Positions 36,579 to 63,321 of a stretch of DNA of 64,000 bases are shown in pieces. The translations under genes were made by a program, and so were the position numbers. The notes beneath the pieces were generated by a model that was given only the letters and a program-made list of their open reading frames with translations, did no database searches and had not been told where the DNA came from. Each line of letters opens with the position of its first letter. Position 1 is the stretch's first letter. Source of the DNA: a virus; the IMG/VR virus record IMGVR_UViG_3300030687_000017, one strand, 5' to 3'.

Positions 36579-36861
36579 AAGACTTCTCATCCGGATAGTA
36601 CACTTCGATCAGCTTCTGTAGGAAGTGCTGTGCTTTCTTCAGGTCTTCCAGGCCGTTCTTACCGAGGAAGCGTAATGTGTACTTGGCCACCTGTCCAACC
36701 AAGTATGGCATCTTGGCATACAGATCCCAGTGCTGAATAATTTTATGACAGTGAGGACACACCGCCGACGCCTCTTGATAGTGACTACCTCCTACCTGCG
36801 TATCGTTAGCCTTGCTACTCGAAGACGTTGAATTCCGGACCTGCTTCACTACGGGTTTCAC
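36577..36861 (-). CDS. DUF3310-family phage protein
   Basis: Hallmark VGGSHYQ motif and KYTLRFLGK...DLKKAQHFL. Confidence 0.55.
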   Translation of the reverse strand: MKPVVKQVRNSTSSSSKANDTQVGGSHYQEASAVCPHCHKIIQHWDLYAKMPYLVGQVAKYTLRFLGKNGLEDLKKAQHFLQKLIEVYYPDEKS

Positions 36862-37423
36862 GATAGATCTCCTTTATAGCTTCGTACATGTTAGAGGCGC
36901 GCAGCGCGATGTCCAAGGGTACTTCCGTATTTACCGTGAGTGTTTCGATGTATGAACAGAATCGCTTCCAGATCAGCATGACGTTCTTGTTACCTAAGGC
37001 AAGCTCACGGCAGCAATACAGCAGACCATCAAAGCAGTCAGCCAGCTTAAGGATGAGCAACTCCTCCGGATCCAACCATTGCTCATAATCCAGGTCGTAC
37101 TTACGCAGCGTCTTCTGCTCCCAGTCATGGACTAGGTCAGACAGGCCCATCATGCGCTTGGCTGGAGCGCTGATGTCTGACGCTGCTTGCTCGGCCAGAT
37201 CATGCGTTAGCGCTGCCATAAGCAACATGGCGCTGGCTTGCGTACGACCCTCGGCATCTTTGCCGGCCAGTAAACTGCACCAAAGAGCAACGCCGAACGA
37301 GTGTGACGCATCGGTGTCTGTGCGTAAGCCTGGACGTGCGTGGTAGCGAATTACACTACCGCCCTCGTAAATGAATTGCAGGAGTTCTTTCACTTCCGCC
37401 TCCGTTCTTTCCACTCGTAGCAC
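36815..37423 (-). CDS. HD-domain phosphohydrolase (YfbR-like 5'-deoxynucleotidase type)
   Basis: RYHARPG...TDTDASHSFGVALW (H..D) and LTHDLAE (HD) motifs. Confidence 0.7.
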   Translation of the reverse strand: MLRVERTEAEVKELLQFIYEGGSVIRYHARPGLRTDTDASHSFGVALWCSLLAGKDAEGRTQASAMLLMAALTHDLAEQAASDISAPAKRMMGLSDLVHDWEQKTLRKYDLDYEQWLDPEELLILKLADCFDGLLYCCRELALGNKNVMLIWKRFCSYIETLTVNTEVPLDIALRASNMYEAIKEIYRETRSEAGPEFNVFE

Positions 37424-38481
37424 GCGCGCTTCCAGTCCGGCGCGTCAATGCCATCGAGGCAAGTGTTGCTGCTGTATTCATCCTTCCACTTTCGGAACAC
37501 CCAGAACAGGAACATCGGAATGGCTACCGCATGGAAGAATGGCGTCTTGCAGGCGGGGACGTTCGCTGCAAGCTGCGTAGCTTCTGGTAATACGTCTGAC
37601 GGGAACGTTGCCGGCGGTGGGGTGGCACGTATCACCTTCAGCGCCCACGGCATGAACAGCTTCAGGTCGTCGTCGAATCCTTCTGTGATAGAGGGTCCAA
37701 GAGGTTCCAACTGATCGAGCGTAACGCACTCGTATTCAATGGCGTTCAGCTTGTCAATACTGAACTTGTCGGTATACGTATGCAGATTGTTCGTGAACTG
37801 ATAGTAACTGCCCATCGGCACACCGATACGCATCGCCATGTACTCCAACAGGAAGCTGAAGTGGACCGCGTTCGCGCCGAATGCGCCCCACATACTGTCG
37901 TTGCTGCGGTTCATGACGGTCATGTTCAGCTTGCCGGCTCGTATGGCGAAGTAAGCGTGCGTGTTGCACGGAACGGCTTTACCACCGTTGCACGCAACGC
38001 CAAGATCATCGCTGTACTGTACGCCACTTTTCGCCTCCCATTGCGGGGCGCTTGGCGCAATATCAGCGTTCCACATCGCCAATACGCAGCGCCTGCTTCC
38101 CGGATTCGACTTGAGCTCCTCCACTATGGCATCGAGCTGGTCATAGCCGAAGAATTCTCGCCAGCGCCATCCGTAAGAGTCCCACATAGTCTTGCCATCA
38201 TCTGAAAACTGCGAGTATGAGGCATTAAAGAAAACCGGAAACTCCAGTTCGTTGCTCCCCGAGAAAAACCACAACGCCTCCATCACATGGAATACGTGGT
38301 TCGCATCGCGCGTTGGTGAATACAGCACTCGCTGCCTTGGGTCGGTATACTCGATACACACCGGCCCTGGCGCTACTAGCACTGGACCTACTCTGGAGTC
38401 CTCTTTGATTCCACTGTGTAACAAATGCTGTAGTCCAAGTGAAAGCGCCTCATTTACGTCTCTAGCTTTGTAACTGTACAT
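37390..38481 (-). CDS. thymidylate-synthase-fold enzyme with ~90-aa C-terminal extension (candidate dUMP hydroxymethylase, or divergent ThyA)
   Basis: Translation aligns by eye to E. coli ThyA: DQLDAIVEELKSNPGSRRCVLAMWN vs [25 protein letters not shown]; catalytic PC(N)TH vs PCHAF; NRSNDSMWGAFGANAVHFSFL vs [20 protein letters not shown] (Asn at the uracil-specificity position). ATG 38481 with AAGGAA RBS preferred over GTG 38487. Confidence 0.7.
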   Translation of the reverse strand: MYSYKARDVNEALSLGLQHLLHSGIKEDSRVGPVLVAPGPVCIEYTDPRQRVLYSPTRDANHVFHVMEALWFFSGSNELEFPVFFNASYSQFSDDGKTMWDSYGWRWREFFGYDQLDAIVEELKSNPGSRRCVLAMWNADIAPSAPQWEAKSGVQYSDDLGVACNGGKAVPCNTHAYFAIRAGKLNMTVMNRSNDSMWGAFGANAVHFSFLLEYMAMRIGVPMGSYYQFTNNLHTYTDKFSIDKLNAIEYECVTLDQLEPLGPSITEGFDDDLKLFMPWALKVIRATPPPATFPSDVLPEATQLAANVPACKTPFFHAVAIPMFLFWVFRKWKDEYSSNTCLDGIDAPDWKRACYEWKERRRK

Positions 38482-38506: not shown

Positions 38507-39379
38507 TTAATTATAAGCTTCGCCGCTGGCGCGGAACTTCTGCTTCGCTCTGCCGCCGTTGTACTTCACCTTGCAGTATTTGCTGAATTCACACAGACAG
38601 TTCTGTAGATTCTGCGCATCCAACACTGGGCATTTCAACTTTGGCTGAGCTACCTTCATCAAATCCAGCAGCGTAGCATGCCATTCCTCTTCGTTCCAGC
38701 GCGCAGTTGGTTCTCTTCCCACGAGCCAGTTTAACCCTCTACGACTTCCTGGCCCTGACATTGCGAACGTCATCCAGTCTTCAGCCTTCTTCATAGAAGG
38801 CAGGTGCTTAATATCCGCCACGACCTGCGCACTCATGAACCCACCTCCGAAGCCGTGATGTAACATGAGCGCTTCTTGCAACGTACTAAGCTCACACCCG
38901 GTACGCACCAAGTTACCTAGCAGCTTACGGCTGTTCCACAACGGCCCAAGCACCTGGTCGGCCAAGTACGACGCCTTGGACTGTCCTTTGGTAGCACCGA
39001 CGGCGTTTATCATGTATGCCCCTGTGAACGTCGCCATGCCGTCCTTCTTGCGCGCCTCCATCAGCTTCACAAACCGCTTCGGATTCCATTTTGATGGATA
39101 ACCGAGCGCTTCCAGGCTCGCCGGCAAGTTCACCAACCGTGCCAGCGCCATTGCGAAGACTACCGTGTCGTAGTCCTCCGCGTGCGGCTGTAACCAGTTT
39201 TCGTGTATACACTTAGTGACCCTGTCGTCTTCGCGACGTACGTTGGTAAAGCGGTATTCCAACAGGATAGGATCCTTCGTCCACGGAGCAGGCTTCCCAG
39301 CCAATCGCTTCTGATGTATGGACCAACGCTCGTTCACGAAGTACACGAACTCTTCAAGCCTTGGGAACTGCTTGCTCAT
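38507..39379 (-). CDS. hypothetical protein (290 aa) in the nucleotide-modification cluster
   Basis: Clean ORF; no motif I can name; overlaps the nucleotidyltransferase gene end by 26 nt. Confidence 0.5.
   Translation of the reverse strand: MSKQFPRLEEFVYFVNERWSIHQKRLAGKPAPWTKDPILLEYRFTNVRREDDRVTKCIHENWLQPHAEDYDTVVFAMALARLVNLPASLEALGYPSKWNPKRFVKLMEARKKDGMATFTGAYMINAVGATKGQSKASYLADQVLGPLWNSRKLLGNLVRTGCELSTLQEALMLHHGFGGGFMSAQVVADIKHLPSMKKAEDWMTFAMSGPGSRRGLNWLVGREPTARWNEEEWHATLLDLMKVAQPKLKCPVLDAQNLQNCLCEFSKYCKVKYNGGRAKQKFRASGEAYN
38510..38518 (-). promoter_or_regulatory. -10-like element GCTTATAAT upstream of the TS-fold gene
   Basis: Reverse complement of attataagc; 28 nt upstream of ATG 38481. 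Confidence 0.3.
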
Positions 39380-40073
39380 ACGCCTCCAGTTCAGCCGGTG
39401 TGCCTACGTGGTTGAATTCATCGGCTGCGATCACCATGGCCGTGGTCAACTGCAAATTGTTGTGGCACGGTGCCAGATAGTACTCACCGTTAGTCATCGT
39501 ACTGAGAATCACCATCTCGTAGATGGCGCGCTTGGCAAGCTCCCACGACTGGAATGCATGAACGCCGCAAGAAGCAATACCGCTTATGCGCTGCTTCTCC
39601 ACCACCTGCGTCACTAAGTGATCCTTCATGATAACGAAACTGTAGCGCTCGCTGTCATCCTTAGGACGGAAGCACAGCATAGAAGACTGCACGCCAGACT
39701 TGAAGCAAGCCTCACTAAACTCAGAGAACTTAGCAAGCACACCACTCTTGAAGATGGTGTCACAGTCCATGACCAGCACCGGATCGGTATCGCGAATCAC
39801 ACCTGACGCCGCCAACAAAGACATGGCCGCACCCTTCTGCACGAACCGAATGGGCACGCGGATCGGATGCATGTTCTTCGGCGTTTGCTTGTGAAGCTCA
39901 CTGTACAAATCCACCAAGCACACAACGACAGGCGTCTTGATGATTTCAGACGCCTGGACCAGCGCATGCTGTATCATCGTGCGACCGCGCGCTGGGAGCA
40001 GCGGTTTAGGCGTCATTACCCCGTTACTGACAAATCGTTCACCGCGTCCTGCCGCCAGAATAACTACTTGCAT
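39354..40073 (-). CDS. nucleotidyltransferase (sugar-1-P / phospho-alcohol NTP-transferase fold, RmlA/IspD/LicC-like)
   Basis: N-terminal ILAAGRGERF....PKPLLPARGRTMIQH signature (GxGxR...PKxL...G). Confidence 0.65.
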   Translation of the reverse strand: MQVVILAAGRGERFVSNGVMTPKPLLPARGRTMIQHALVQASEIIKTPVVVCLVDLYSELHKQTPKNMHPIRVPIRFVQKGAAMSLLAASGVIRDTDPVLVMDCDTIFKSGVLAKFSEFSEACFKSGVQSSMLCFRPKDDSERYSFVIMKDHLVTQVVEKQRISGIASCGVHAFQSWELAKRAIYEMVILSTMTNGEYYLAPCHNNLQLTTAMVIAADEFNHVGTPAELEAYEQAVPKA

Positions 40074-40801
40074 GCATCCACTCTCATTTCCGTGCGAAGT
40101 TCTTCCGCCAAATTACGCAGGCCCGATACGACGTCAATGGCCCATACACGCGCCTGCGGCTGCACACCATACAGCCGAATGATGTGCGTCAGCATGTAGT
40201 AGATACAGAGGTCCAGGTTCAATTTTTGCTCGACCAAGAACTTACGTATCATGTAACGTTCCGACTCCAGGCAAGGGCGACCGTAGTGGAAGTACGACTG
40301 CAGCAGCTTGCCGCCGTCAAGCTCGGCCTCTTGTGGCAATGGACGCGTACTAGGGTCTAGCCAATAACCGTCGCGTACGTAGTTCTCCAGGGTGGGATCA
40401 CCATGTACGACCTGTGCTCCTTTGCTTTGCGTACTACCAATTCGTTCGTACCACGTCGTCAGCGCCGACCGGATAATAGGCGGAAAGCCTTCTGTGCGAG
40501 TGAACGGCTCTACTTGGACTACGTGGTGGCGACGGCGGCCCTCATAATCGTAGACATGCGCCACCGGCAGGTCCCATAAAGCAGCCAACCGGGCCAGCGC
40601 CAACGGCAGGTCCAGTACCGGCGATGGTTCGCCCATTACCGGCATGACGTAGCCGCCAGTCGTTATACCTAGCACCGGCACAAATACGTCCGGATAGGCG
40701 CGCATCTTAGCGCCTTGCGTCGGCACACCATGGCCACTCTTATAGATACACGGCTCTAGGGCTGCTCCGCTGTTGCGCTGAATCTTGTGGTGAATGATCA
40801 C
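40064..40801 (-). CDS. small-molecule kinase of the aminoglycoside-phosphotransferase/choline-kinase fold
   Basis: Brenner motif VVHGDPTLENYV (HGDxxxxN) and a downstream D-rich segment; GTG start overlapping the upstream stop (GTGA). Confidence 0.55.
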   Translation of the reverse strand: MIIHHKIQRNSGAALEPCIYKSGHGVPTQGAKMRAYPDVFVPVLGITTGGYVMPVMGEPSPVLDLPLALARLAALWDLPVAHVYDYEGRRRHHVVQVEPFTRTEGFPPIIRSALTTWYERIGSTQSKGAQVVHGDPTLENYVRDGYWLDPSTRPLPQEAELDGGKLLQSYFHYGRPCLESERYMIRKFLVEQKLNLDLCIYYMLTHIIRLYGVQPQARVWAIDVVSGLRNLAEELRTEMRVDACK

Positions 40802-40965
40802 GCCGTGCCTCCCATCATCTTCCGTACGACGACGCGGTAATCCTCCGTGCCGCTCTTGTGCGCGTCCTCCACCAGTTTGCGATTACCACGCCGCACCCAC
40901 CGGTTGAAGCAGCCAAGGTTACAGAACCGATTCGCACACTTCTTCTTGCAATTTTCGCACTTCAT
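40798..40965 (-). CDS. 55-aa Cys-rich (zinc-ribbon-like) peptide, translationally coupled between glycosyltransferase and kinase
   Basis: Own translation: MKCENCKKKCANRFCNLGCFNRW...; ATGA overlap with GT stop and TGA/GTG overlap with the kinase start. Below the 60-aa cutoff of the ORF track. Confidence 0.3.
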   Translation of the reverse strand: MKCENCKKKCANRFCNLGCFNRWVRRGNRKLVEDAHKSGTEDYRVVVRKMMGGTA

Positions 40966-41885
40966 GCCGTCACCGCTTTCTTTGCTGCCTTCCGTACGCT
41001 TGGAACCTTGGGCTGAGCCAGAGAGGAGAGGTAAGCCTTCTTCCAGGCTACCACGACCTCCTTACGCACAGCCGTCGTGGTGTACGCGCGGTCCACCACC
41101 TTCACGAAGCCGGGGTGTAGCTTGGCCAACTCGAAGCACTGGGCGTCGCTGTACTCCATACTGCGCTCGCCGCTGCACCCTCCCGCCGCGCCGAATGTGC
41201 CGTACTCGTTGTTGAGTAGCTCGACGTAGTTGTGGCACTCATGGCCTTTACGCAACATGGACAACACCACGTGGAAGTCCTCGCGCAGACCTATGGCGTC
41301 GAAGCGAATCTTCTCTTTGAGATAGAGCTCTCGGTTGACACCGAAAGCATACATCATCCTTGCGTTCTTCTCCCACGCCGCTTTCTTCTTGTCAGAGTGA
41401 CGCCGATGCGCGATGCCGATCATACCGAGGTCGTGCTCTTTACCAGCGTAGGAATCCATCTCCTGGAATAGCTTCAAGAGGACCTTGTCCTTAGGATAGC
41501 GACGCATCATCAGCGAGGTTCCAGCCGGTGCGTCCGGAGCTACGGCGTACGCCTTGCGATGCTCCTCCCACACGCGCCACTTAGCCGGGCAGCGCTCGAA
41601 GAACGCCAGGTCGTCGTCCATCATAAATAGAAACTTGCCGGCTACGTTCTTCATAATCCAGTGACGCTTCGTAGCGATGGATGTAGTGCCCTTGGCTGTA
41701 AGCACTTGGTTAGCCGGGTACAGCTTCTTCAGCGCCTTGGCTTCGTCAGGCAACGAAGCCACGAGGATGACCTCGGCCTGGAGCGCAGTCGGCAGCGCCT
41801 GGAGCGTTATCTGCTTGTTAACACGACCGTGCGTGGGGATGATGAGTGTTAGGTTTTTCAGGATCGTTCTCCTCTTACGTGGCAA
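40962..41885 (-). CDS. putative GT-A fold glycosyltransferase
   Basis: N-terminal LTLIIPTHGR (GT2-like start) and acidic FLFMMDDDLAFF (DxD-type) motif. Confidence 0.45.
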   Translation of the reverse strand: MPRKRRTILKNLTLIIPTHGRVNKQITLQALPTALQAEVILVASLPDEAKALKKLYPANQVLTAKGTTSIATKRHWIMKNVAGKFLFMMDDDLAFFERCPAKWRVWEEHRKAYAVAPDAPAGTSLMMRRYPKDKVLLKLFQEMDSYAGKEHDLGMIGIAHRRHSDKKKAAWEKNARMMYAFGVNRELYLKEKIRFDAIGLREDFHVVLSMLRKGHECHNYVELLNNEYGTFGAAGGCSGERSMEYSDAQCFELAKLHPGFVKVVDRAYTTTAVRKEVVVAWKKAYLSSLAQPKVPSVRKAAKKAVTA

Positions 41886-42232: not shown

Positions 42233-43792
42233 CTACTCGATGACGGACAGGTAGCCCTGCTTCACCAGCCACGCCACTTCCAGCTTGCGACCGCTGGGAT
42301 TCAGCTTGGACTTGTCCAGCTTGGCCTGAGCCTCGCTCACGGTCTTGGAGCCGATGATGGCCTCAACTTGACCGTAGCAGAAGCTGCCTTCGCGGGGCAA
42401 CGACTCCGACTTCAACGTTACTAACGCCTTGATCTTGCGATCGGCGGCTGCGGCGCGCGGTGCCTTGTCGGCCTTCTTGGTTACGGTTGCCTTGACCTTG
42501 GTCGTGACAGCGTTCTTCGCGGTCTTCTTGGCTGTTCCAGCGGGAGGTGCGAATTTCTGCTTCTTGGTTTCAACGGTTGCAGTGGTCATGATGTTCTCCT
42601 TGCAGTGATCTAACACCGCTGTAAGGTGGCGTTCAGCCACGGACGAAACTACAACTCCAGCCGTAATGGGGTGTAGTAACTGATTTACGTCTCTCACTAG
42701 ATCGCTACTTGTGATCTGACGCAGTGTTCTCAGAACTTCTGTCGGTACTACTCCGGCAGCAACGCGACTCCCGTTATTATACACGCAAATCGCGCCCTGC
42801 GAATTGGGTTTTTCCAACTGTAGCAAAACGATACCATTATTGGGATCTTCCAGCAGGAATATCTCGTCCAGGTTGACGTAGATATCAGCATCCGACTTCG
42901 GCTGCGCCATTGGCATGTTCGCCGTTTCGCGCTCCGCACGCTTGACTCGTGCCGCCAGTTCCAGCTTGAAATCGGCGCTGTCCTTGGCTTCTTGCTTCTT
43001 GTTCATCTTCTTGGGCGCGTCCAGGATCGGCTTGCCATCGAATACGACGCGGGTGTGTACCGTCTTCCGAAGCTCGTCAGCGATTACAGCCTTCTCTACC
43101 TTCGCTACCGCGCGCTCCGTCTTGCTGGCACTCTTCGCGAGCTCCATGCACTTCGCGCTGAATGCCGACTCCATACCGGCCACGGACGACTTCGCGATGC
43201 CGAGCGCGACGTAGAACTCGGTCAGCACTTTGTTGACGCCGCTCTCCTTGACCAGTACCTTGTCAGTCTTACGTAGCAGCTTCAGAAGCTGCACGCGCGC
43301 CTTGTAGTTGGCGTCGCCAGCCAGATCGCTGATGCGATACTTGCCAGCCGTCAGCTTACGTAGCGCGTCCAGCGCGGCCACGACGTTGCTAGGTAACGGA
43401 GCCGGTCCCTTAGCGTCGTACATGGTCTTTACGAATTGCTGAGCGTTCTTGCCTTCAGCCGTGGAGCCGTCCGCAAACTTCACCTGCCACGCGGTGTTGA
43501 TGCTGGACGAACTGCCAGCGTGCGTGAATAGAAGCGCCGCACCGTCTTCGCGTGTATAGCCATGAGCGGTATTGTTATCTACCTCCTCAGTGCGGCTGTA
43601 TACGAATCCGGCCTTGACGAACGCCTGAGTCAGCGGCGTTACGGGCGCGGTGGGAGCGAGCGACTTATTGTGGATGTCGTGCGTGGCTACGACTGTTTCG
43701 CCCTTAGCCGTCTTGATCAACTTCTTGCCAACAGCCTTGACAGCTTTCGCGCTCGGTGCTGCCTTGATGTTCTTCAGGATTGACTTTGCCAT
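42233..43792 (-). CDS. hypothetical Lys/Ala-rich protein (about 519 aa), possibly nucleic-acid-binding
   Basis: ATG 43792 (MAKSILKNIK) overlapping the upstream TAA preferred over GTG 43804; long basic low-complexity C-terminal region. Confidence 0.45.
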   Translation of the reverse strand: MAKSILKNIKAAPSAKAVKAVGKKLIKTAKGETVVATHDIHNKSLAPTAPVTPLTQAFVKAGFVYSRTEEVDNNTAHGYTREDGAALLFTHAGSSSSINTAWQVKFADGSTAEGKNAQQFVKTMYDAKGPAPLPSNVVAALDALRKLTAGKYRISDLAGDANYKARVQLLKLLRKTDKVLVKESGVNKVLTEFYVALGIAKSSVAGMESAFSAKCMELAKSASKTERAVAKVEKAVIADELRKTVHTRVVFDGKPILDAPKKMNKKQEAKDSADFKLELAARVKRAERETANMPMAQPKSDADIYVNLDEIFLLEDPNNGIVLLQLEKPNSQGAICVYNNGSRVAAGVVPTEVLRTLRQITSSDLVRDVNQLLHPITAGVVVSSVAERHLTAVLDHCKENIMTTATVETKKQKFAPPAGTAKKTAKNAVTTKVKATVTKKADKAPRAAAADRKIKALVTLKSESLPREGSFCYGQVEAIIGSKTVSEAQAKLDKSKLNPSGRKLEVAWLVKQGYLSVIE

Positions 43793-43793
43793 G

Positions 43794-43949
43794 TTAGCGT
43801 CCACCCTTCGCGATGGCGGCTTCGGTGAACTGGATCATGCGGGCGAGGTTCTCAGCCTTCTTGAACTCTTCCTGCGCGATGCGGCTGATGAGTGCTGACT
43901 TGAGAAGTTCGAGGGAGTTCTTGCGCTTCTGTTGCATGGACTGTGGCAT
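43794..43949 (-). CDS. 51-aa hypothetical peptide
   Basis: AAGGAGAAAC RBS then ATG 43949; MPQSMQQKRKNSLELLK... Confidence 0.3.
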   Translation of the reverse strand: MPQSMQQKRKNSLELLKSALISRIAQEEFKKAENLARMIQFTEAAIAKGGR

Positions 43950-48258: not shown

Positions 48259-48707
48259 GCCTTCGCTCTTGCTGCTTTATTTATCGCTCTGGTGATGTGG
48301 CCAAGCTTCACAGCGGCAGACTTCGCTGCGAGCTCTTCTTTAGTCCACACTTTCTTCGCGTAAGCATCCTTTATACGCTTCTTCTGTGCTTTGTGAAACT
48401 TCGGATCGGCCCACATACTTCTAGATGATTCAGCTTTCTTAGCACGCATTTCAGACGTCCACTCTACCTGTCGTTTTCTACCCTTGCGAATCATGTCACG
48501 AACATTGTCAAGCTGCGTACCAAGAAAATGATGCGTATCCACGATACATTGCGGTTGATCACATTTATGGCAAACGTATATGTGACTGGGTACGTAGCCA
48601 TGACGTAGAATGTAAACGCGTCTGGCTACATTTCGCGAAGGATGAAGACGACACTTGCCTACTTTCGTAGCTTCGCGTAAGTATTGTGCTTCAGTTTTAC
48701 TGCTCAC
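48252..48707 (-). CDS. HNH homing endonuclease (HNH_3-type)
   Basis: HIYVCHKCDQPQCIVDTHHFLGTQLDNVRD (CHxCDNPxC...HL..GT..DN pattern); locally lower GC. Confidence 0.7.
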   Translation of the reverse strand: MSSKTEAQYLREATKVGKCRLHPSRNVARRVYILRHGYVPSHIYVCHKCDQPQCIVDTHHFLGTQLDNVRDMIRKGRKRQVEWTSEMRAKKAESSRSMWADPKFHKAQKKRIKDAYAKKVWTKEELAAKSAAVKLGHITRAINKAARAKAL

Positions 48708-50200
48708 TTCTTCCCTTTCTTACCACCAGCTCTTTCTTCCGAGTACTCCTTCATGGACGCTAGAAACGCCTTCTGCCCAGTTTCCTTAGACCTTAAATTT
48801 CGAATCTTTGGTATGTCCACCGTATTGTTGACGACGAAGTGGTGCTTCATGACCCACGCCGATTTGTTGCCTTGGCGCAATACACGCAGGAAGAATTGGT
48901 GATAAAGATCGTAGTTGTCTGGTATGTCGAAGTAACCGACGTGTCTAGAGCTGAACTTCTGCATATTCAAACTATGCGCCATGCTGGCCGGGTGACCTAG
49001 CAGCAACGGCAATTGGCCCTTATTCCACCGCTCGATGTAGTCCGCCGCTTGCGACCGTGTGGTTTGCCCGTTGATGCATGGAACGTCCTTACCCAGCGCC
49101 AACCGCAGCGCCGTTACGTCATGCTGGAAACCGATACCAAGTAGTAACGGCTCACCCTGTAGCTCACGTACAAGGTCCACTACCGCTTCCACCTTGGCCG
49201 TGTGCACTACCTTAACTGGTCGTTGCTTGTTACCCCAATTCTCTTCCGGGTCGTAGTCCAGGTATACCGATCCGTTGGCAATCTGGCAGCACTTCGACCG
49301 CGCGCTGGCTGAATTCACCAACGGCTGCGTGAAGAGTGTACTGAGTAGCGAGTTCTCAATCTTGTCATATTCAACGCGCGCCGCCGTGGGTAGATCAACC
49401 CGGTGGGTGCGCTCCATCTCCTTAGGCAGCTTCAGATAGTCCTTGGCGTCCAGACGCATCATCATGGGCGCTACCAGCGCGTCGATCTTCTTCTCAGCAC
49501 CTGGCAGTATCTGCCACTCGCGCATCTGGTAGCCGGTAGGGAAGAAGTACGTATTGCGATAGCTGGATATGTACTCTCCCAGCGCTGCACCCTGATCCAG
49601 TAGATACACCTGCCCATGCAAGTCCAGATAGTTACGAGGACGAGGGCTACCTGTGAGTATATGTCGCCGCTTAAACGTACGCAGGTGCTTCCGCAAAGCG
49701 CGGAAACGCACCGTTGCACTACTCTTCCATAGAGACGATTCATCAATATCCAGCACATCAGCTTCCAGCAATTTAGCGCGCTTCATGGTCTCGAATAACC
49801 ATGGAATGCCCTCAGGATTAATAATGCAGATCTGATGCTCTGGTTGCAAATTGCGTAGATTCTTCTCCTTGTCGGCACCATGCAACAGAGCGATACGCAT
49901 GTCTTTGAAGTCTGTCCAATCACACACCTCCGCTGGCCAAGTATAGTAGCACGCCCGTAACGGTGCGATGACCAACATGCGCTTGGCTAACTTCTTCTTC
50001 AGTAATATCTTGAACATAGCCAATGAAACGCTTGTCTTGCCCATTCCAGGATCGAGCAGCAAGCCAGACCGAGGATTCTCTAGCATGAACTTCAGTGTGC
50101 GTTCCTGATACGGCCATGGCGTCCACGGTTTAGCCGCTTTCCGCCACTGCTCCATCTTCAGAGCCAGTGATTTTGGTACGAGGTCAGTCGGCAAGGTCAA
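48704..50200 (-). CDS. SF2 (SNF2/DEAD-like) DNA helicase
   Basis: PYQ...LLLDPGMGKTS (Walker A), VIAPL, LDIDESS (DExx), later helicase C-terminal-type motifs. Confidence 0.7.
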   Translation of the reverse strand: MTLPTDLVPKSLALKMEQWRKAAKPWTPWPYQERTLKFMLENPRSGLLLDPGMGKTSVSLAMFKILLKKKLAKRMLVIAPLRACYYTWPAEVCDWTDFKDMRIALLHGADKEKNLRNLQPEHQICIINPEGIPWLFETMKRAKLLEADVLDIDESSLWKSSATVRFRALRKHLRTFKRRHILTGSPRPRNYLDLHGQVYLLDQGAALGEYISSYRNTYFFPTGYQMREWQILPGAEKKIDALVAPMMMRLDAKDYLKLPKEMERTHRVDLPTAARVEYDKIENSLLSTLFTQPLVNSASARSKCCQIANGSVYLDYDPEENWGNKQRPVKVVHTAKVEAVVDLVRELQGEPLLLGIGFQHDVTALRLALGKDVPCINGQTTRSQAADYIERWNKGQLPLLLGHPASMAHSLNMQKFSSRHVGYFDIPDNYDLYHQFFLRVLRQGNKSAWVMKHHFVVNNTVDIPKIRNLRSKETGQKAFLASMKEYSEERAGGKKGKK

Positions 50201-52192: not shown

Positions 52193-54172
52193 TTAATCCT
52201 GCCATTTTGTCAAAGTCCCCCAATTAACACCAGATTCGCCTTCCGACAACATGGGAACGTCGGTGGCGATACTACGCATACAATCTTGCATTATTTTCTG
52301 TTCTTCTTTCATTGCTTTAGCAGGTGCACTGAAATTAACTTCGTCATACACAGTGACGACGAATCTGCTATTCTTCTTGGCTTCGTTATAACGTATCAAT
52401 GTTTCTTTCGTTACATCAGCTCCGCTACCTTGCATGAGGTAGTTGAGAAGTTTATATGAAAATGTCATGTCTCTGCCATACAGAGGACTGTACTTCGGCT
52501 CTTCACAATAGTACAGACGTGACCCAAACGTGCGAATCGGCAAGCCTTCATCCGAGAGCGCCTTCAAACGATTGTCCAGTTCCTTGATCGATGGCACAGC
52601 CGCGTTGATAGAAGCCTGGATGATCTGCGCAATAGGCTTCTCTTCATCTAGTAGCTGTAGAAGCTGCATCAGGCCGGTTATACCCTGGCCATACAGACGA
52701 CCGAACACGCAACTCTTGGCAGTGTCACGGTCGAATCCTTCGCGTAAACACGCTTCAATCAAACGCCGTTCTACTTCTGCACGCACCAGTTCATGGATGT
52801 CGTATTTGCGTTCTGCGTGAAATTTGCCACCAACGCATTGTTTACCTACAGGTGCGCCGCACTTAGAGCATGGCAAATCTATTTGGGCAGATAAGAAACC
52901 TGCCATAACGGGTCCTTCTTCAAAGTGGCCGAACAATCTCAATTCTTGTTGATCGAAATCCCTTTTGCCCCACCGCTGACCCTTATCCGGTAAGCAGTAA
53001 CTACGTACGTACGGCAATTCTGGAACCTTCAAGAATGCTGGATGGACGTAACCGGCAGAAGCTGCGCGCTTCCATTTCTTCGGAATATTTAAGAAGTTAG
53101 GCTTTGAGCAAATGATGCGACCGCTGCGCGCTCCTCCTGTATCGTTGTTACCCTTCGGACTGCGCACCTGCGACCAGTTAGGGTGAATGGTACCCTTGCC
53201 GGCTGTACCAAGTTCCAACCAAGGCTTGATAAACATCGAGATGGACGTACTCATCTGACCGCGATACTGCAGGGCTTGATACACCTTCGGGTCTTTGAAC
53301 TTATTCAACGTAAGTGTCTTCTTACTCACCGACAGATGGCCCTTGGCTGTCTTCTTAAAGTCGCTTACGATTCCTTTATTGTAAAGCGCCTCGCCAAGCT
53401 GCCGATCACTGTCGATGTTCTCAATACCCAGCTTCTTGCGCAGCCAGACATCGGTCTTCTCTACGCCAGCTATCATCGCCGGCAAGTCACGCTCTAGGCC
53501 ATTCATGTCCACGCGCATCCCCACCCGCTCGTTCTCCAGCAGTATTGGCATGAGCTTCAATTCACGTTGATACGCTTCCAGCATTCCGGACTCGACGATA
53601 TACGGGTAGATCTTATTGAACAACCGACCCATGCGCGTGAGATCGCCTTTGTGGTAGGGCTTGACAATTCGATAAGGCGCTTCGCAGATATACGCACCCC
53701 ATGTGCTGGGCTTCTTACGCGCCGCCTCGATGTTGGCTAGGATCCACTCCTTCAGCTTGTCCTGCTCCTCAGGCGCAATCCCTAGTATGCGCTGGGCCGA
53801 TTCCTTCAACGCTAGAGACGGAGCATGAGGGTTCTCGAGGAAGAGAAGATACATAGTATCGTGACGCTTCCGCCAATCCGGGATTGGTAGTTCCCAATGT
53901 ATTTCGGCGACGTCCAGATCGAATTTCTCGTTCTGCCAAAGCACTGGATACTTGCTTTCCTGTGCCTTCTTGAGCTCGCCGCGCGCTTCCTTCTCTGTGC
54001 AATTGTTGTCGAACGCACGCGTTCCATCCCCATGACCCCATGCCATGAGTTTGTAATCTGACTGATCGGGCCACTTAAGAGCGAGCGAACCCGGCTTCGG
54101 TGGGTACTTTGGCCGCGACTGAATACCCTTCGTTTCAAAATCTGCGAGAATCACCTGCGGCGCACGTGGCAT
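52193..54172 (-). CDS. family A DNA polymerase (3'-5' exonuclease plus polymerase domains)
   Basis: ExoI ILADFETKG; motif A DFDQQELRL; motif B RDTAKSCVFGRLYGQG; motif C VYDEVNF. Confidence 0.85.
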   Translation of the reverse strand: MPRAPQVILADFETKGIQSRPKYPPKPGSLALKWPDQSDYKLMAWGHGDGTRAFDNNCTEKEARGELKKAQESKYPVLWQNEKFDLDVAEIHWELPIPDWRKRHDTMYLLFLENPHAPSLALKESAQRILGIAPEEQDKLKEWILANIEAARKKPSTWGAYICEAPYRIVKPYHKGDLTRMGRLFNKIYPYIVESGMLEAYQRELKLMPILLENERVGMRVDMNGLERDLPAMIAGVEKTDVWLRKKLGIENIDSDRQLGEALYNKGIVSDFKKTAKGHLSVSKKTLTLNKFKDPKVYQALQYRGQMSTSISMFIKPWLELGTAGKGTIHPNWSQVRSPKGNNDTGGARSGRIICSKPNFLNIPKKWKRAASAGYVHPAFLKVPELPYVRSYCLPDKGQRWGKRDFDQQELRLFGHFEEGPVMAGFLSAQIDLPCSKCGAPVGKQCVGGKFHAERKYDIHELVRAEVERRLIEACLREGFDRDTAKSCVFGRLYGQGITGLMQLLQLLDEEKPIAQIIQASINAAVPSIKELDNRLKALSDEGLPIRTFGSRLYYCEEPKYSPLYGRDMTFSYKLLNYLMQGSGADVTKETLIRYNEAKKNSRFVVTVYDEVNFSAPAKAMKEEQKIMQDCMRSIATDVPMLSEGESGVNWGTLTKWQD

Positions 54173-54604
54173 CTACAGCGCCCCCGTAATGGCCACTTGG
54201 CCCTGGTACTTGCCGCGATAAGGCTCGGTGGCGCTGGTAAGCTTCGCGAAGATGACGTGGGCGAATCGCTGTCCAACAGGCACGTAACCCGGCGCGCCGA
54301 ACTTGGCTATCTCCAGGGTGATACTGCCCTGGAAGCCAGCGTCTATCACAGTCGGTGGCATGATGAAGCCCATACGCGCCCAAGTGGACCGTATTTGCAC
54401 GAACGCCATAAGGTCGTCAGGCATGGTTATAATCTCGCGCGTACGACCTAACGTGAATCCACCTGCGGCCAACAAGTCGCTCTCCACCTGACTCACAATC
54501 ATGTCAATGCCGTTTTGCTGAAACTGATCGTCAGCCAATGCTGGCTCGAACCGTAGCGCACCCCGCTCTACGTACTTCATAAGATCTTGCCGCGATAGAA
54601 TCAA
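54173..54604 (-). CDS. dCTP deaminase / dUTPase-family protein
   Basis: TTG start 6 nt after GGAG gives (M)ILSRQDLMKYVERGALRFEP..., like Dcd MRLCDRDI...; C-terminal VPVGQRFAHVIF...GKYQGQ. The longer ORF from 54931 is Arg-rich and overlaps the next gene, so it is rejected. Confidence 0.5.
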   Translation of the reverse strand: MILSRQDLMKYVERGALRFEPALADDQFQQNGIDMIVSQVESDLLAAGGFTLGRTREIITMPDDLMAFVQIRSTWARMGFIMPPTVIDAGFQGSITLEIAKFGAPGYVPVGQRFAHVIFAKLTSATEPYRGKYQGQVAITGAL

Positions 54605-54770
54605 AACAATCTCCGCTTCGTAAATAGTGCAGGGCCAAAAACCAACGCAAAAGGAATCAAACAAATGATGAGGAAGATGCGCGGGATCAGTAAGATCAGT
54701 TTCATAGTACTCCTTTCTTCGCCGTACTTGGCCAGCAGTGAGGGCTACCGACCAAGTACGACTTAGAATT

Positions 54771-55589
54771 CTACCGCCGTGTAGTCTTCTTGCCGGCGAA
54801 CTTGGAATTGGACTTCGACGCAGCCGGAGCCTTCTTCGCGGTCTTATCGGCCACGGAGAACGGCTTCTGAAGTTGCTCCTGCACCTTGAGCACACGCTTC
54901 TCAAGAGCCTGGAGAACGTCGTCGTCGTCAATCAGAGACACCATCTTGAACTCCAGACGAATCTGTGTCTTCGGATCATCGTAACTGGCAATCTCCGTCA
55001 CCACGGCCCACGGCGGACGACCATACTCCTCTTCCAACAGGTCGGTGTACTTCTTGTAATGGTTCAGGTTGGTAGGGCTGACACCGGCATTGGCCATCTC
55101 CGCAGCGGCGACGCTGTCAGCGTCCTCGGTGGCGTCATTGCCGGTCAGCAGGCCGAGACGAATAGTATTGCCGCATGCCTTGCCCTTGCCAACGCGCGCC
55201 GTACCGAACTGGTTCTTTTCACAATCGGCGCACTTCACAGCTTGCTTGTCAGGTGCCGACGGGTGAGGAGCCATCTCTGGGTCGTCCGAGATGACAGAGA
55301 ACGCGTAGCAATCCGGCGGCAGCGGATTGGACGCATCAAACGGCTGCTCGTTCCAGCGATTGAGCGCGCAGCTGCCGACAATGACGCACTCCAGCTTGCC
55401 GCCCTTGACTTCGACGTCGCCGATAGAGATGCGTCCACGGCCGAACTTAATACTGACGCCGCCGACTCCGATGTTCTTGGTCTGTTCCTTTGTTTCTTTG
55501 GCGTACTTCGCAAATTTTTCCGTCCAAGGAATTATCGCCGTGGACGTTGTCTTCTTACCTTTGGCTGCTGTCTTCTTTACTACTGGCAT
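54771..55589 (-). CDS. hypothetical protein (272 aa; Cys pairs; possible ssDNA-binding role by position)
   Basis: ORF with Lys-rich termini and CADCEKNQ...KACG cluster; no assignable motif. Confidence 0.4.
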   Translation of the reverse strand: MPVVKKTAAKGKKTTSTAIIPWTEKFAKYAKETKEQTKNIGVGGVSIKFGRGRISIGDVEVKGGKLECVIVGSCALNRWNEQPFDASNPLPPDCYAFSVISDDPEMAPHPSAPDKQAVKCADCEKNQFGTARVGKGKACGNTIRLGLLTGNDATEDADSVAAAEMANAGVSPTNLNHYKKYTDLLEEEYGRPPWAVVTEIASYDDPKTQIRLEFKMVSLIDDDDVLQALEKRVLKVQEQLQKPFSVADKTAKKAPAASKSNSKFAGKKTTRR

Positions 55590-55651
55590 TCAGTTCTCCT
55601 TGTGCTGCGTTCGTATTGGTGCTTGGTTTCTGCGACGCTGAGCAACCCGAC

Positions 55652-55912
55652 CTAATCGAGCTCGATCATAGCAGCAATGCTGATACTGTGAATGTGCATA
55701 ATCTGCGCCTTCTCAAAGTCAGGACGATTGGGCATACCGACGACACGTATCGAGCCGCCGTATATAAAGTCTCGATTCTTGTCTTTCACTTCGGCAATCA
55801 CCACTTCCGTAAACACCGGACTACCAGCAATCATGACGGCAACCGGACGGCCGAACGTGATCAACATTTTCTTTTGGTACAATTCCACTTCATCGCTTGC
55901 TTCGTTGTTCAT
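55652..55912 (-). CDS. hypothetical small protein (86 aa)
   Basis: ORF. Confidence 0.35.
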   Translation of the reverse strand: MNNEASDEVELYQKKMLITFGRPVAVMIAGSPVFTEVVIAEVKDKNRDFIYGGSIRVVGMPNRPDFEKAQIMHIHSISIAAMIELD

Positions 55913-56836: not shown

Positions 56837-56849
56837 AATGCTCCTTGCA

Positions 56850-57074
56850 CTACATTTTCTTGGTGTGTTTTGGTATCGTGAACGTTGCATCGGTAGTAGT
56901 AAGATCGCTACCTGACGACGTAATGCTAAGTACGGTACCATCTTCAAATTCAAACGTGTAGGTACCGGGTCCATCGCAGTTGACCTGCGCCTTTGTGATT
57001 CGCTGACCGACCAGATGATTCAACTGAATTCGTTCGTCTCGACAGTCTTCGCAGAAATGTTCTCTCATTAGCAA
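56850..57074 (-). CDS. hypothetical small protein (74 aa, CEDC..C pairs)
   Basis: ORF. Confidence 0.35.
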   Translation of the reverse strand: MLMREHFCEDCRDERIQLNHLVGQRITKAQVNCDGPGTYTFEFEDGTVLSITSSGSDLTTTDATFTIPKHTKKM

Positions 57075-62976: not shown

Positions 62977-63321
62977 TCAGCCATCACGCGTGCGTCCCTC
63001 TCCCTTGCAATCCTTGCACTCCGTTATCTTGCCCTTGAACATACGTGTACCGACCACGCCCGAGCCTGCGCACTTGCCACACTGCCCTGACAGCAGAAAC
63101 TGCGACGCCGCCCACTGTGCACGCAGCGCGTCAGTCTTGATGGCTGAGTACGCTTCGGTGATGCGGTGCCACTGGAAGTTCAACTTCTCCTGCGACGCCT
63201 CTGGCATTCCACGCCGCGCATCCGGATGGCAGTACCGCGCCAGCCCATGGTATAATTTACGAATGATCTCGTCAGAGTCGTTTGGCTTCGCCAACAGTAT
63301 GCAGTAGGGCGTCACAACCAC
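62977..63321 (-). CDS. J-domain (DnaJ-like) protein with CxxCxGxG zinc-finger
   Basis: YCILLAKPNDSDEIIRKLYHGLARYCHPDARRG (HPD tripeptide) and CGKCAGSG...CKDCKGEG. Confidence 0.6.
   Translation of the reverse strand: MVVTPYCILLAKPNDSDEIIRKLYHGLARYCHPDARRGMPEASQEKLNFQWHRITEAYSAIKTDALRAQWAASQFLLSGQCGKCAGSGVVGTRMFKGKITECKDCKGEGRTRDG

What the first reader, a model, noticed from the sequence alone, without database searches (positions are those of the whole stretch)
37390..38481. Thymidylate-synthase-fold enzyme with ~90-aa C-terminal extension and substituted active-site neighbourhood
By-eye alignment to ThyA is clear (DRTG.., R-R-x-x-x-S/A-W-N, P-C-x-x-x, Q/N-R-S-x-D, ...FN...). The catalytic motif is PCNTH rather than PCHAF, and QRSCD is replaced by NRSND. 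ThyA requires its exact C-terminus to close the active site, whereas this protein continues for ~90 more residues including a hydrophobic stretch (PMFLFWVF). That argues for hydroxymethylase-type or other non-reductive chemistry, or a fused accessory domain.
Basis: seen in the sequence. Interest (0 to 1): 0.6.

Follow-up and report, generated by a model that had tools for sequence, protein, structure and literature searches.

The report
Phage dUMP hydroxymethylase, relocated catalytic aspartate
This gene of an uncultured ~100-kb phage most likely makes 5-hydroxymethyl-dUMP, the precursor phages use to replace thymine with decorated bases; its long tail is a helical domain normal for such enzymes, but its water-activating aspartate sits at a neighbouring position.

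Summary
Window 37390-38481 (minus strand) encodes a 363-aa thymidylate-synthase-fold protein whose C-terminus differs from ThyA's.

It is not an odd ThyA. It belongs to the long-form pyrimidine hydroxymethylases:
- Nearest cultured relatives are M6 gp58 (38%, full length) and SPO1 gp29, annotated dUMP hydroxymethylase.
- The best solved structure is MilA, matched over the full length.
- The "extension" is MilA's five-helix C-terminal domain. PMFLFWVF lies in a confidently modelled helix, not a membrane segment.

Published diagnostic residues point to deoxyribose (R130, S193), uracil (N204) and folate dependence (D195).

One rule fails. The hydroxymethylase Asp three residues before the catalytic Cys is Ala169. 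Asp101, two residues before Tyr103, takes its place: in 268 of 270 aligned sequences exactly one of the two sites is Asp (exceptions: misaligned E. coli ThyA, one gapped sequence). T4 dCMP hydroxymethylase has these two positions in contact.

The gene sits in a conserved core (HMUDK_hel, this enzyme, HD hydrolase) behind a swappable cassette. Here the cassette is an APH-fold kinase, a sugar-1-phosphate-type nucleotidyltransferase and a TAGT glycosyltransferase, suggesting glycosylated 5-hydroxymethyluracil DNA.

Function is inferred; nothing was assayed.

The parts
37390..38481 (-). Gene for the 363-aa TS-fold enzyme, predicted dUMP hydroxymethylase (stop codon included)
   Evidence: ORF, ribosome-binding site and stop. 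Pfam PF00303 5.6e-18. phrog_5131 3e-94 over the full length. AF2 pLDDT 95.8, pTM 0.93.
37717..38481 (-). TS-fold catalytic core, residues 1-255. Carries R30, E68, Y103, R130/R131, C172, R192/S193/D195, N204, H234/Y236.
   Evidence: Alignments to ThyA, MilA, SPO1 gp29, M6 gp58 and ViI. These residues are invariant or nearly invariant in 69 homologues. Codons verified.
37393..37716 (-). C-terminal helical domain, residues 256-363. It includes PMFLFWVF (322-329) in helix 314-331 and the invariant W350 and W357.
   Evidence: AF2 helices at pLDDT 86-99. Foldseek aligns the full length to MilA 5jnh over 361 columns, TMq 0.74 / TMt 0.84. MilA alpha9-alpha13 is described as an extra five-helix C-terminal domain away from the active site (PMC5175136). 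Helices are conserved and loops variable; hydropathy 1.41.
38179..38181 (-). Asp101 codon (Tyr103 minus 2): proposed relocated water-activating carboxylate
   Evidence: Mutually exclusive with Asp at position 169 in 268 of 270 aligned sequences. The equivalent T4 dCH Ser94 contacts Asp145 (PMC6400193).
37975..37977 (-). Ala169 codon (Cys172 minus 3). This is the position of E. coli ThyA Leu143 and of T4 dCH Asp145; the published hydroxymethylase signature residue is absent here.
   Evidence: Alignment and motif tables. The rule is stated in PMC6400193 and PMC13326640.
37966..37968 (-). Catalytic Cys172 codon (ThyA C146 equivalent)
   Evidence: Invariant in all alignments.
37870..37872 (-). Asn204 codon (ThyA N177 / MilA D186 position): uracil rather than cytosine specificity
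   Evidence: HMMER alignments to MilA and to a TS. Determinant described in PMC5175136 and PMC13326640.
37987..38064 (-). Variable surface insertion, residues 140-165, ahead of the catalytic strand
   Evidence: Lowest pLDDT in the model (76-84). Column conservation 0.31. Absent from ThyA and much shorter in M6.
38507..39379 (-). HMUDK_hel (PF18723) protein, homologue of M6 gp55. It sits immediately upstream of the TS-fold gene in the window and in all four relative contigs examined.
   Evidence: Pfam 1.9e-41. tblastn to M6 gp55 4e-45. M6 gp55 is itself PF18723. Conserved position in L002, L007, L008 and the P0047 and P0013 contigs.
36815..37393 (-). HD-domain, YfbR-like 5'-deoxynucleotidase-family protein. 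Its GTG start overlaps the TS stop codon. It is the homologue of M6 gp59.
   Evidence: Pfam YfbR-like 5.8e-09. Gene called as 192 aa in L002. GTGA overlap. tblastn to M6 gp59.
39354..40073 (-). Sugar-1-phosphate-type nucleotidyltransferase (GlmU / MurU / RmlA-like)
   Evidence: Pfam NTP_transf_3 6.8e-14 and NTP_transferase 2.7e-10. NCBIfam Arch_glmU 1.7e-18, MurU 1.9e-09, all below equivalog cutoffs. PDB 4evw and 4y7t.
40064..40801 (-). 245-aa small-molecule kinase of the APH / choline-kinase fold, with an invariant HGDPTxEN...D motif
   Evidence: No Pfam, PHROG or NCBIfam hit. AF2 pLDDT 92, pTM 0.88. Foldseek top hits are choline kinases, APH(3') and LicA (E 2e-4, prob 1.0, TMq 0.5-0.6). Invariant H132, G133, D134, N139 and D148.
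40962..41885 (-). TAGT-family (TET/JBP-associated) DNA glycosyltransferase. The gene caller gives 266 aa inside this 307-aa ORF.
   Evidence: Pfam TAGT 1.1e-14. phrog_842 2.6e-43. Homologues in phiRSL1 and, beside a TS homologue, in LuckyBarnes.
54173..54580 (-). dCTP-deaminase/dUTPase-fold protein directly upstream of DNA polymerase A; candidate supplier of dUMP/dUTP
   Evidence: Pfam DCD 3.6e-18, dUTPase 4.4e-06. Same gene called in L013.

Best explanation
**What it is.** The gene encodes a homodimeric, folate-dependent deoxyuridylate hydroxymethylase.

**Proposed mechanism.**
1. Cys172 attacks C6 of dUMP.
2. The C5 enolate takes the one-carbon unit from 5,10-methylene-tetrahydrofolate.
3. 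Tyr103 and Glu68 chemistry eliminates tetrahydrofolate, leaving an exocyclic methylene intermediate.
4. The site lacks ThyA's sealing C-terminal tail and its bulky Leu143. So water adds to the methylene instead of a hydride, giving 5-hydroxymethyl-dUMP plus tetrahydrofolate.
5. In this clade the carboxylate that activates that water is proposed to be Asp101, two residues before Tyr103. In other hydroxymethylases it is the Asp three residues before the Cys. The two positions touch in T4 dCH, so the charge has moved across one contact.

**The C-terminal domain.** The ~110-residue five-helix domain is the integral structural domain also found in MilA. It is not a membrane anchor or a catalytic add-on.

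**Pathway role.** Further phosphorylation yields 5-hmdUTP, which the phage polymerase incorporates in place of T. The adjacent cassette (kinase, then nucleotidyltransferase, then TAGT glycosyltransferase) then decorates the hydroxymethyl group, probably with a sugar.

**Shown:** fold, homology, residue states, covariation and gene context.
**Inferred:** substrate, product, the role of Asp101 and the final DNA modification.
For: **Family placement**
- phrog_5131 matches at 3e-94 over the full length.
- Closest cultured homologues are the M6/Ab19-type proteins, 38% identity over residues 1-364, E down to 2e-64. M6 makes 5-NedU from 5-hmdU (PMC5889632, PMC8989533).
- Next come SPO1 gp29, annotated dUMP hydroxymethylase (3e-32), and ViI (1e-27).
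- True T-even thymidylate synthases score only 5e-6.

**Structure**
- The AF2 model has pLDDT 95.8.
- Its best PDB match is MilA over 361 columns, TMq 0.74 / TMt 0.84. ThyA chains reach TMq ~0.52 over ~246 columns.

**Diagnostic residues**
- R130 and S193 indicate deoxyribose; MilA has K133' and A176.
- N204 indicates uracil.
- D195 is retained, so the enzyme is folate-type rather than a 5-hydroxy-dCMP synthase, whose signature is D169N.
- C172, E68, Y103, H234 and Y236 are all conserved.

**Asp swap**
- Across the 270 aligned sequences the (position 101, position 169) states were: (G,D) 171, (D,A) 77, (A,D) 12, (D,C) 4, (D,G) 2, (S,D) 1, (D,I) 1.
- No complete sequence had both or neither. 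The remaining two rows are the misaligned E. coli ThyA reference and one gapped sequence.
- The swapped state falls into about six groups on a neighbour-joining tree.
- Ser94 contacts Asp145 in T4 dCH.

**Gene context**
- The HMUDK_hel, TS, HD, DUF3310 order is syntenic with M6 gp55, gp58, gp59, gp61.
- A relative with the same Ala/Asp state (P0009, 68% identical) sits beside an amino-acid:DNA transferase, a PLP enzyme and a P-loop kinase. These enzymes need 5-hmdU DNA.
- The swap state is independent of cassette type.
- The window also carries a DCD/dUTPase-fold gene, an HD hydrolase and an NT5C deoxyribonucleotidase. This matches the classical 5-hmU phage toolkit (PMC8989533).
Against: - No enzymatic or nucleoside data exist for this protein or any member of its 45-80% identity clade. 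All are from uncultured sequences.
- The published hydroxymethylase signature (Asp/Glu at the ThyA L143 position) is not met.
- In T4 dCH even D145N abolishes activity. The compensating role of Asp101 therefore rests on covariation and a contact reported for a different enzyme.
- I could not inspect model coordinates to measure the distance from Asp101 to the active site.
- The covariation partly reflects shared ancestry: 77 of the 84 swapped sequences form one clade.
- No dNMP kinase for 5-hmdUMP was identified in the window.
- The best solved structural match is a CMP enzyme, and TAGT glycosyltransferases characterised so far act on 5hmC.
Confidence: 0.75

Rival explanations
1. It is an ordinary thymidylate synthase making dTMP. 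On this view the extra C-terminal domain has no effect on chemistry. This is how databases label its homologues.
For: - Pfam PF00303 is passed.
- Every dUMP-binding residue of ThyA is conserved.
- Position 169 is a non-acidic residue, as in TS.
- Homologues are named 'thymidylate synthase' by JGI and RefSeq.
Against: - All seven NCBIfam thymidylate-synthase equivalog models fall far below their cutoffs, for example 67.5 against 174.55 bits and 58.5 against 327.
- ThyA's folate-sealing C-terminal tail is replaced by a helical domain.
- Ala169 is small, not the water-excluding Leu.
- Similarity to known dUMP hydroxymethylases is far higher (E 1e-32 to 1e-64) than to phage thymidylate synthases (5e-6).
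- The gene is embedded in a 5-hmU-processing context.
Confidence: 0.05
2. It is a cytosine-nucleotide hydroxymethylase (dCMP or CMP), like T4 gp42 or MilA. The neighbouring glycosyltransferase would then make glycosyl-5hmC DNA.
For: - MilA is the best sequence and structure match in the PDB.
- The glycosyltransferase belongs to phrog_842, annotated as 'beta-glucosyl-HMC-alpha-glucosyltransferase', and to TAGT. Characterised relatives of TAGT act on 5hmC.
Against: - The base-specificity position is Asn204, nearly invariant in the family, where MilA, BcmA and T4 dCH have Asp.
- The ribose determinants are Arg and Ser, not MilA's Lys and Ala.
- The invariant neighbour is a 5-hmdU-pathway protein (PF18723).
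- Relatives carry 5-hmdU DNA kinase and amino-acid:DNA transferase genes.
Confidence: 0.07
3. It is a flavin-dependent C5-hydroxylase of the RB69 gp48 / DLP3 gp80 type. The hydroxyl it installs would then be glycosylated.
For: - The cassette (kinase, uridylyltransferase-like enzyme, glycosyltransferase beside a TS homologue) resembles the RB69/DLP3 arabinosylation clusters.
- A TS-fold FAD monooxygenase (9iqc) appears among the fold hits with TMt 0.83.
Against: - The diagnostic D169N substitution of all tested 5hodCMP synthases is absent. Asp195 is invariant in the family.
- Those enzymes also carry N177D, whereas this protein has Asn.
- The closest relatives are in 5-hmdU phages.
Confidence: 0.04
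4. The Ala169/Asp101 variants have diverged in chemistry. For example, the exocyclic methylene might be captured by a nucleophile other than water, giving a different C5 substituent at the nucleotide level.
For: - The canonical water-activating Asp is missing.
- The PCNTH motif, with Thr174 nearly invariant and His175 the majority residue, is specific to this clade.
Against: - Swapped and unswapped enzymes occur with the same downstream cassettes in otherwise syntenic phages.
- Strict retention of exactly one Asp argues for conserved chemistry.
- Position 169 drifts among A, C, G and I, as expected once it is relieved of a catalytic role.
Confidence: 0.05

Closest known systems
Pseudomonas phage M6 gp58 (YP_001294566) and its Yuavirus/Abidjanvirus homologues, the dUMP hydroxymethyltransferase of the 5-NedU thymidine-hypermodification pathway
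   Same: - 38% identity over the full length, including the C-terminal domain.
- PCN and NRSND motifs and the uracil-type Asn.
- Same gene order: HMUDK_hel, TS, HD, DUF3310.
   Different: - M6 has Asp at Cys-3 (KDLPC) and Gly at Tyr-2. The window protein has Ala and Asp.
- M6 lacks most of the 140-165 insertion.
- M6's downstream chemistry is kinase, glycine transferase, radical SAM enzyme and PLP enzyme. The window instead has kinase-fold, nucleotidyltransferase and glycosyltransferase genes.
Bacillus phage SPO1 gp29, dUMP hydroxymethylase (383 aa)
   Same: - 36.8% identity over the catalytic core, E 3e-32.
- Long C-terminal region.
- FSDDG, PCN and NRSND motifs and the uracil-type Asn.
   Different: - Canonical Asp at Cys-3 (KDRPC).
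- The C-terminal region is not alignable at sequence level.
- SPO1 leaves 5-hmU unmodified in its DNA (established knowledge).
MilA, CMP 5-hydroxymethylase of mildiomycin biosynthesis (PDB 5jnh, 5b6d)
   Same: - Best structural match over the whole chain, including the five-helix C-terminal domain.
- Conserved Cys, Glu, His and Tyr catalytic set.
   Different: - 22% identity.
- MilA has K133', A176 and D186 (ribose, cytosine). The window protein has R130, S193 and N204 (deoxyribose, uracil).
- MilA has the canonical Asp at Cys-3.
T4 gp42 dCMP hydroxymethylase (PDB 1b5e and its ternary complex)
   Same: - TS fold.
- No ThyA-type sealing tail.
- Mechanism by water addition to the exocyclic methylene.
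- The Ser94-Asp145 contact defines the two positions that are swapped here.
   Different: - 246 aa with no C-terminal helical domain.
- Cytosine-specific Asp179.
- The Asp sits at Cys-3 rather than Tyr-2.
E. coli ThyA / T-even td thymidylate synthase
   Same: - Fold, catalytic Cys and all dUMP-binding residues.
   Different: - Leu143 becomes Ala.
- His147 becomes Asn.
- The C-terminal tail is replaced.
- 22% identity, and below all NCBIfam equivalog cutoffs.

Membership tests
Thymidylate synthase ThyA (EC 2.1.1.45) | TS/dCMP-hydroxymethylase fold with catalytic Cys and the dUMP phosphate-binding arginines | tested here: met
   PF00303 at 65.5 bits against a cutoff of 24.3. C172, R30, R130, R131 and R192 are invariant.
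Thymidylate synthase ThyA (EC 2.1.1.45) | Scores above curated equivalog thresholds for thymidylate synthase | tested here: not met
   The best NCBIfam hit is 67.5 bits against a cutoff of 174.55. The others score 19-58 bits against cutoffs of 108-427.
Thymidylate synthase ThyA (EC 2.1.1.45) | Short C-terminal tail that closes over the folate, and a bulky hydrophobic residue at position 143 that excludes water | tested here: not met
   The tail is replaced by the helical domain at 256-363. Position 143 is Ala169.
Phage dUMP hydroxymethylase (SPO1 gp29 / M6 gp58 type) | Closer in sequence to known dUMP hydroxymethylases than to thymidylate synthases | tested here: met
   M6-type 1e-58 to 2e-64 over the full length, SPO1 gp29 3e-32, ViI 1e-27, against T2/RB27 td at 5e-6 to 8e-6.
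Phage dUMP hydroxymethylase (SPO1 gp29 / M6 gp58 type) | Asn at the ThyA N177 position (uracil), Arg and Ser at the deoxyribose determinants, Asp at the ThyA D169 position (folate-type) | tested here: met
   N204, R130, S193 and D195. The rules come from PMC5175136 and PMC13326640.
Phage dUMP hydroxymethylase (SPO1 gp29 / M6 gp58 type) | Asp or Glu three residues before the catalytic Cys (ThyA L143 position) | tested here: not met
   Ala169 occupies this position. All seven cultured-phage hydroxymethylase-type homologues checked have Asp. An Asp is instead present at Tyr-2, in strict alternation with position 169.
Phage dUMP hydroxymethylase (SPO1 gp29 / M6 gp58 type) | Genomic linkage to enzymes that act on 5-hmdU in DNA | tested here: met
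   HMUDK_hel is adjacent. Syntenic relatives carry amino-acid:DNA transferase and 5-hmdU DNA kinase genes.
Phage dUMP hydroxymethylase (SPO1 gp29 / M6 gp58 type) | Converts dUMP and methylene-THF to 5-hmdUMP and THF | not testable with these tools
   Requires an enzyme assay or in vivo nucleoside LC-MS.
MilA-type CMP hydroxymethylase | TS core plus a five-helix C-terminal domain | tested here: met
   Foldseek to 5jnh gives TMq 0.74 / TMt 0.84 over 361 columns. Domain described in PMC5175136.
MilA-type CMP hydroxymethylase | Lys133' and Ala176 (ribose preference) and Asp186 (cytosine) | tested here: not met
   The window protein has R130, S193 and N204.
5-hydroxy-dCMP synthase (RB69 gp48 / DLP3 gp80 type) | Asn replacing ThyA Asp169, together with N177D | tested here: not met
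   Asp195 is invariant and Asn204 is present. Diagnostic from PMC13326640.

The most novel reading that the evidence does not exclude
This phage group may replace thymine with a glycosylated 5-hydroxymethyluracil, a base-J-like DNA made pre-replicatively.

The proposed route has two parts:
- A dUMP hydroxymethylase subclass with its catalytic aspartate relocated supplies 5-hmdU.
- A self-contained phage cassette builds its own activated donor (APH-fold kinase, then nucleotidyltransferase) and transfers it with a TAGT glycosyltransferase.

The same genomic slot holds interchangeable cassettes in sister phages: amino-acid transferase with kinase, or GT-B with methyltransferase. That would make the locus a plug-in site for thymidine hypermodification.
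Probability: 0.4. Interest if true: 0.65.

Novelty: new variant of a known kind. Interest (0 to 1): 0.45.

Why it matters
**Annotation rules.** Product specificity of TS-fold enzymes is currently read from a few diagnostic residues (ThyA N177, L143, D169). This clade breaks the L143-to-Asp/Glu rule while keeping a carboxylate at the adjacent contact position. Residue-based annotation would therefore misfile roughly a third of the family sampled here, 84 of 268 sequences. The rule should become "Asp at Cys-3 or at Tyr-2".

**A testable case.** It is also a natural experiment in relocating a catalytic residue, and it can be tested with two point mutants.

**The locus.** A conserved 5-hmdUMP-supply core (HMUDK_hel, hydroxymethylase, HD hydrolase) is followed by swappable decoration cassettes. 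The sugar-type cassette predicts a glycosyl-5-hmU phage DNA. I found no report of such a DNA in phages in the literature searched.

**What is ordinary.** The enzyme's basic identity as a phage dUMP hydroxymethylase with a MilA-like C-terminal domain is unremarkable.

Tried and rejected
- **Membrane anchor or fused accessory domain.** Rejected. Hydropathy is 1.41 over 19 residues, and PMFLFWVF lies in a helix with pLDDT of at least 97. The domain aligns to MilA alpha9-alpha13. It has no Pfam family of its own.
- **Near-identical cultured phage.** Megablast of the locus found only a 96-bp match. No cultured phage falls in the 45-80% identity clade.
- **M6-type downstream enzymes in the window.** tblastn with gp51, gp52, gp53 and gp54 found nothing. 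A Walker-A scan found no plausible P-loop kinase gene. About 36 kb of the ~100-kb genome lies outside the window. Roughly 10 kb beyond each window end was seen through related contigs (L012, L013) and held no such gene. The remainder was not examined.
- **Sequence-based identification of the 245-aa protein.** Pfam, PHROGs, NCBIfam and a PDB phmmer search all failed. Only AF2 plus Foldseek placed it in the APH/choline-kinase fold.
- **Correlation of the Asp swap with cassette type.** None was found.
- **Look-up of the NT5C ORF** failed because the gene runs off the window end.
- **Measuring the Asp101-to-Cys172 distance in the model.** Not possible, because coordinates are not exposed.
Full report
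**1. The observation**

The ORF lies on the minus strand. An ATG at 38481 follows an AAGGAAG ribosome-binding site. The TGA at 37390-37392 overlaps the GTG start of the next gene. The 363-aa product is identical to a protein seen on 43 metagenomic contigs of up to ~102 kb.

Pfam Thymidylat_synt matches residues 59-243 at 5.6e-18. The protein is 99 residues longer than E. coli ThyA. About 20 of these are a variable insertion at 140-165. Most of the rest is a different C-terminus from about residue 256 onward.

**2. What the C-terminal "extension" is**

An AlphaFold2 model built from 69 homologues is very confident: pLDDT 95.8, pTM 0.93. Residues 269-362 form five main helices and one short one.

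Foldseek against the PDB puts MilA, the CMP hydroxymethylase of mildiomycin biosynthesis, first. The alignment covers 361 columns with TMq 0.74 and TMt 0.84. ThyA structures align only over the ~246-residue core.

The MilA paper describes exactly this feature: an extra five-helix C-terminal domain, away from the active site, whose truncation makes the protein insoluble (PMC5175136).

Known or inferred phage dUMP hydroxymethylases are equally long: SPO1 gp29 383 aa, ViI 346 aa, M6 gp58 351 aa. BFVD also holds full-length viral matches.

Within the family the helices are conserved, with W350 and W357 invariant, and the loops are not. The PMFLFWVF stretch lies in helix 314-331. Its 19-residue hydropathy of 1.41 is below the usual membrane threshold. 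The extension is therefore a known, integral domain of long-form hydroxymethylases. It is not an anchor or a novel fusion.

**3. Which enzyme**

Ranking against 50,697 phage genomes gives this order:
- M6/Ab19-type proteins first, at 38% identity over the full length and E down to 2e-64.
- SPO1 gp29 next (RefSeq note "dUMP hydroxymethylase", 3e-32), with CP-51 and ViI-like phages.
- Genuine T-even thymidylate synthases last, at only ~5e-6.

M6, ViI and SPO1 are phages whose DNA derives from 5-hmdU (PMC5889632, PMC8989533). All NCBIfam thymidylate-synthase equivalogs are missed by a wide margin.

Published specificity determinants can be read from the alignments:
- MilA K133' and A176 (ribose) are Arg130 and Ser193 here, indicating deoxyribose.
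- MilA D186, T4 D179 and ThyA N177 correspond to Asn204, indicating uracil.
- ThyA D169 is retained as Asp195. This excludes the flavin-dependent 5-hydroxy-dCMP synthases, whose diagnostic is D169N (PMC13326640).
- Cys172, Glu68, Tyr103, His234 and Tyr236 are conserved.

**4. The unusual feature**

Two papers give a signature for hydroxymethylation. It is an Asp or Glu three residues before the catalytic Cys: T4 Asp145, at the ThyA Leu143 position. This residue activates the substrate water. D145N is inactive, and Asp145 is held by Ser94, two residues before Tyr96 (PMC6400193; PMC13326640).

M6, SPO1, ViI, Lucjan, Ab19, Bhz59 and LuckyBarnes all have that Asp. The window protein has Ala169 (GGKAVPC). 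It does, however, have Asp101 at Tyr103 minus 2 (W-D-S-Y-G).

I aligned 270 sequences: the window protein, M6 gp58, E. coli ThyA and 267 database homologues. The two positions alternate strictly.

| Position 101 | Position 169 | Count |
|---|---|---|
| Gly | Asp | 171 |
| Asp | Ala | 77 |
| Ala | Asp | 12 |
| Asp | Cys | 4 |
| Asp | Gly | 2 |
| Ser | Asp | 1 |
| Asp | Ile | 1 |

No complete sequence has both Asp or neither. The remaining two rows are the misaligned E. coli ThyA reference and one gapped sequence.

On a neighbour-joining tree the swapped state falls into about six groups, one of them holding 77 sequences. The nearest unswapped neighbours are up to 72% identical.

I read this as relocation of the catalytic carboxylate across a direct contact. 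It is an inference. I could not open the model coordinates, and one large clade dominates the counts.

**5. Context**

The gene order is HMUDK_hel (PF18723), then this gene, then an HD/YfbR-like hydrolase, then DUF3310. This is syntenic with M6 gp55, gp58, gp59, gp61. It is conserved in four related ~70-105-kb contigs.

Upstream of this core lies a variable cassette:

| Contig (TS homologue) | Asp state | Cassette |
|---|---|---|
| P0040 | Asp at Cys-3 | GATase-ADDT fusion, 5-hmdU DNA kinase, acetyltransferase |
| P0009 | Ala/Asp swapped | ADDT, PLP enzyme, methyltransferase, P-loop kinase |
| P0013 | Ala/Asp swapped | GT-B, methyltransferase |
| Window | Ala/Asp swapped | TAGT glycosyltransferase, 245-aa protein, nucleotidyltransferase |
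| P0047 | Asp at Cys-3 | Same sugar-type cassette as the window |

The swap state is therefore independent of the cassette. A swapped enzyme serves a cassette that needs 5-hmdU DNA. This is the strongest contextual argument that swapped enzymes still make 5-hmdUMP.

The 245-aa protein has no sequence-family hit. It folds confidently (pLDDT 92) as an APH/choline-kinase-type kinase with an invariant HGDxxxEN...D motif. Its neighbour is a GlmU/MurU-like nucleotidyltransferase.

Kinase, nucleotidyltransferase and DNA glycosyltransferase together look like a self-contained donor-synthesis and transfer module. It is analogous to the AmgK/MurU pair (my own knowledge) and to the RB69/DLP3 UDP-arabinose genes. 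The donor's identity is unknown. A CDP-alcohol donor of the LicA/LicC type cannot be excluded.

Elsewhere the window encodes a DCD/dUTPase-fold protein next to DNA polymerase A. It also encodes an NT5C deoxyribonucleotidase cut by the window end. This fits the nucleotide-pool remodelling known for 5-hmU phages.

**6. Verdict**

This is a phage dUMP hydroxymethylase of the long, MilA-like form (confidence ~0.75).

What is new is modest but concrete. One active-site variant moves the water-activating Asp and breaks a published annotation rule. The enzyme also sits in a plug-in hypermodification locus whose sugar-type cassette predicts glycosylated 5-hmU DNA. Associations between TS homologues and GT-A enzymes were already noted in surveys. 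I found no phage report of glycosyl-5-hmU in the literature searched.

Nothing here was tested biochemically.

Noticed in passing
window 38507-39379 (-): The HMUDK_hel protein (PF18723, M6 gp55-like) is kept directly upstream of the hydroxymethylase in every cassette type. This includes the sugar cassette, where no P-loop 5-hmdU DNA kinase or amino-acid:DNA transferase was found in the window. Its role therefore seems generic to 5-hmdU phages rather than tied to the kinase. M6 gp55 was dispensable in the published in vitro reconstitution.
   Followed up: partly
window 40064-40801 (-) and 39354-40073 (-): A narrow family of only 16 homologues, all on related phage contigs, encodes APH/choline-kinase-fold kinases invisible to Pfam, PHROGs and NCBIfam. 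It is paired with a GlmU/MurU-like nucleotidyltransferase and is a likely phage-encoded activated-donor pathway for DNA decoration.
   Followed up: partly
window 54173-54580 (-): A 135-aa dCTP-deaminase/dUTPase-fold gene abuts the DNA polymerase A gene. A naive longest-ORF call masks it with a 252-aa TTG ORF and a spurious 305-aa plus-strand ORF (54738-55655). The real neighbouring gene is 54771-55589 (-).
   Followed up: yes
window 63568-64000 (-): An NT5C-type 5'(3')-deoxyribonucleotidase gene runs off the right end of the window. It is 156 aa in the related contig L013. It could be a dTMPase-like pool-depleting enzyme.
   Followed up: partly
window 42233-43804 (-): A 523-aa protein with no family hit. 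Proteins of 547-678 aa, also without Pfam hits, occupy the same slot just upstream of the variable cassette in all related contigs. Homology between them was not tested and the function is unknown.
   Followed up: no
L014 (Brevibacterium phage LuckyBarnes) 2448-5612: A cultured phage encodes a 517-aa uracil-type TS homologue (GKDIPCN, GIN) followed directly by two TAGT-like glycosyltransferases. It is a tractable candidate for glycosylated 5-hmU DNA.
   Followed up: partly
window 1-34300 (+) and 52193-54172 (-): The window is about two thirds of a ~100-kb uncultured tailed-phage genome recovered on contigs from many metagenome samples. The left half is a structural module. The DNA polymerase A is closest (36%) to Pseudoxanthomonas phage PW916 and Stenotrophomonas phage AXL3.
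   Followed up: partly
window 55925-56974 (-), 62977-63321 (-), 48704-50200 (-): An SPFH/Band-7 protein, a small DnaJ-domain protein and an SNF2-family helicase are encoded among the replication genes. A Band-7 gene is inserted between the TS and HD genes in the P0013 contig.
   Followed up: no
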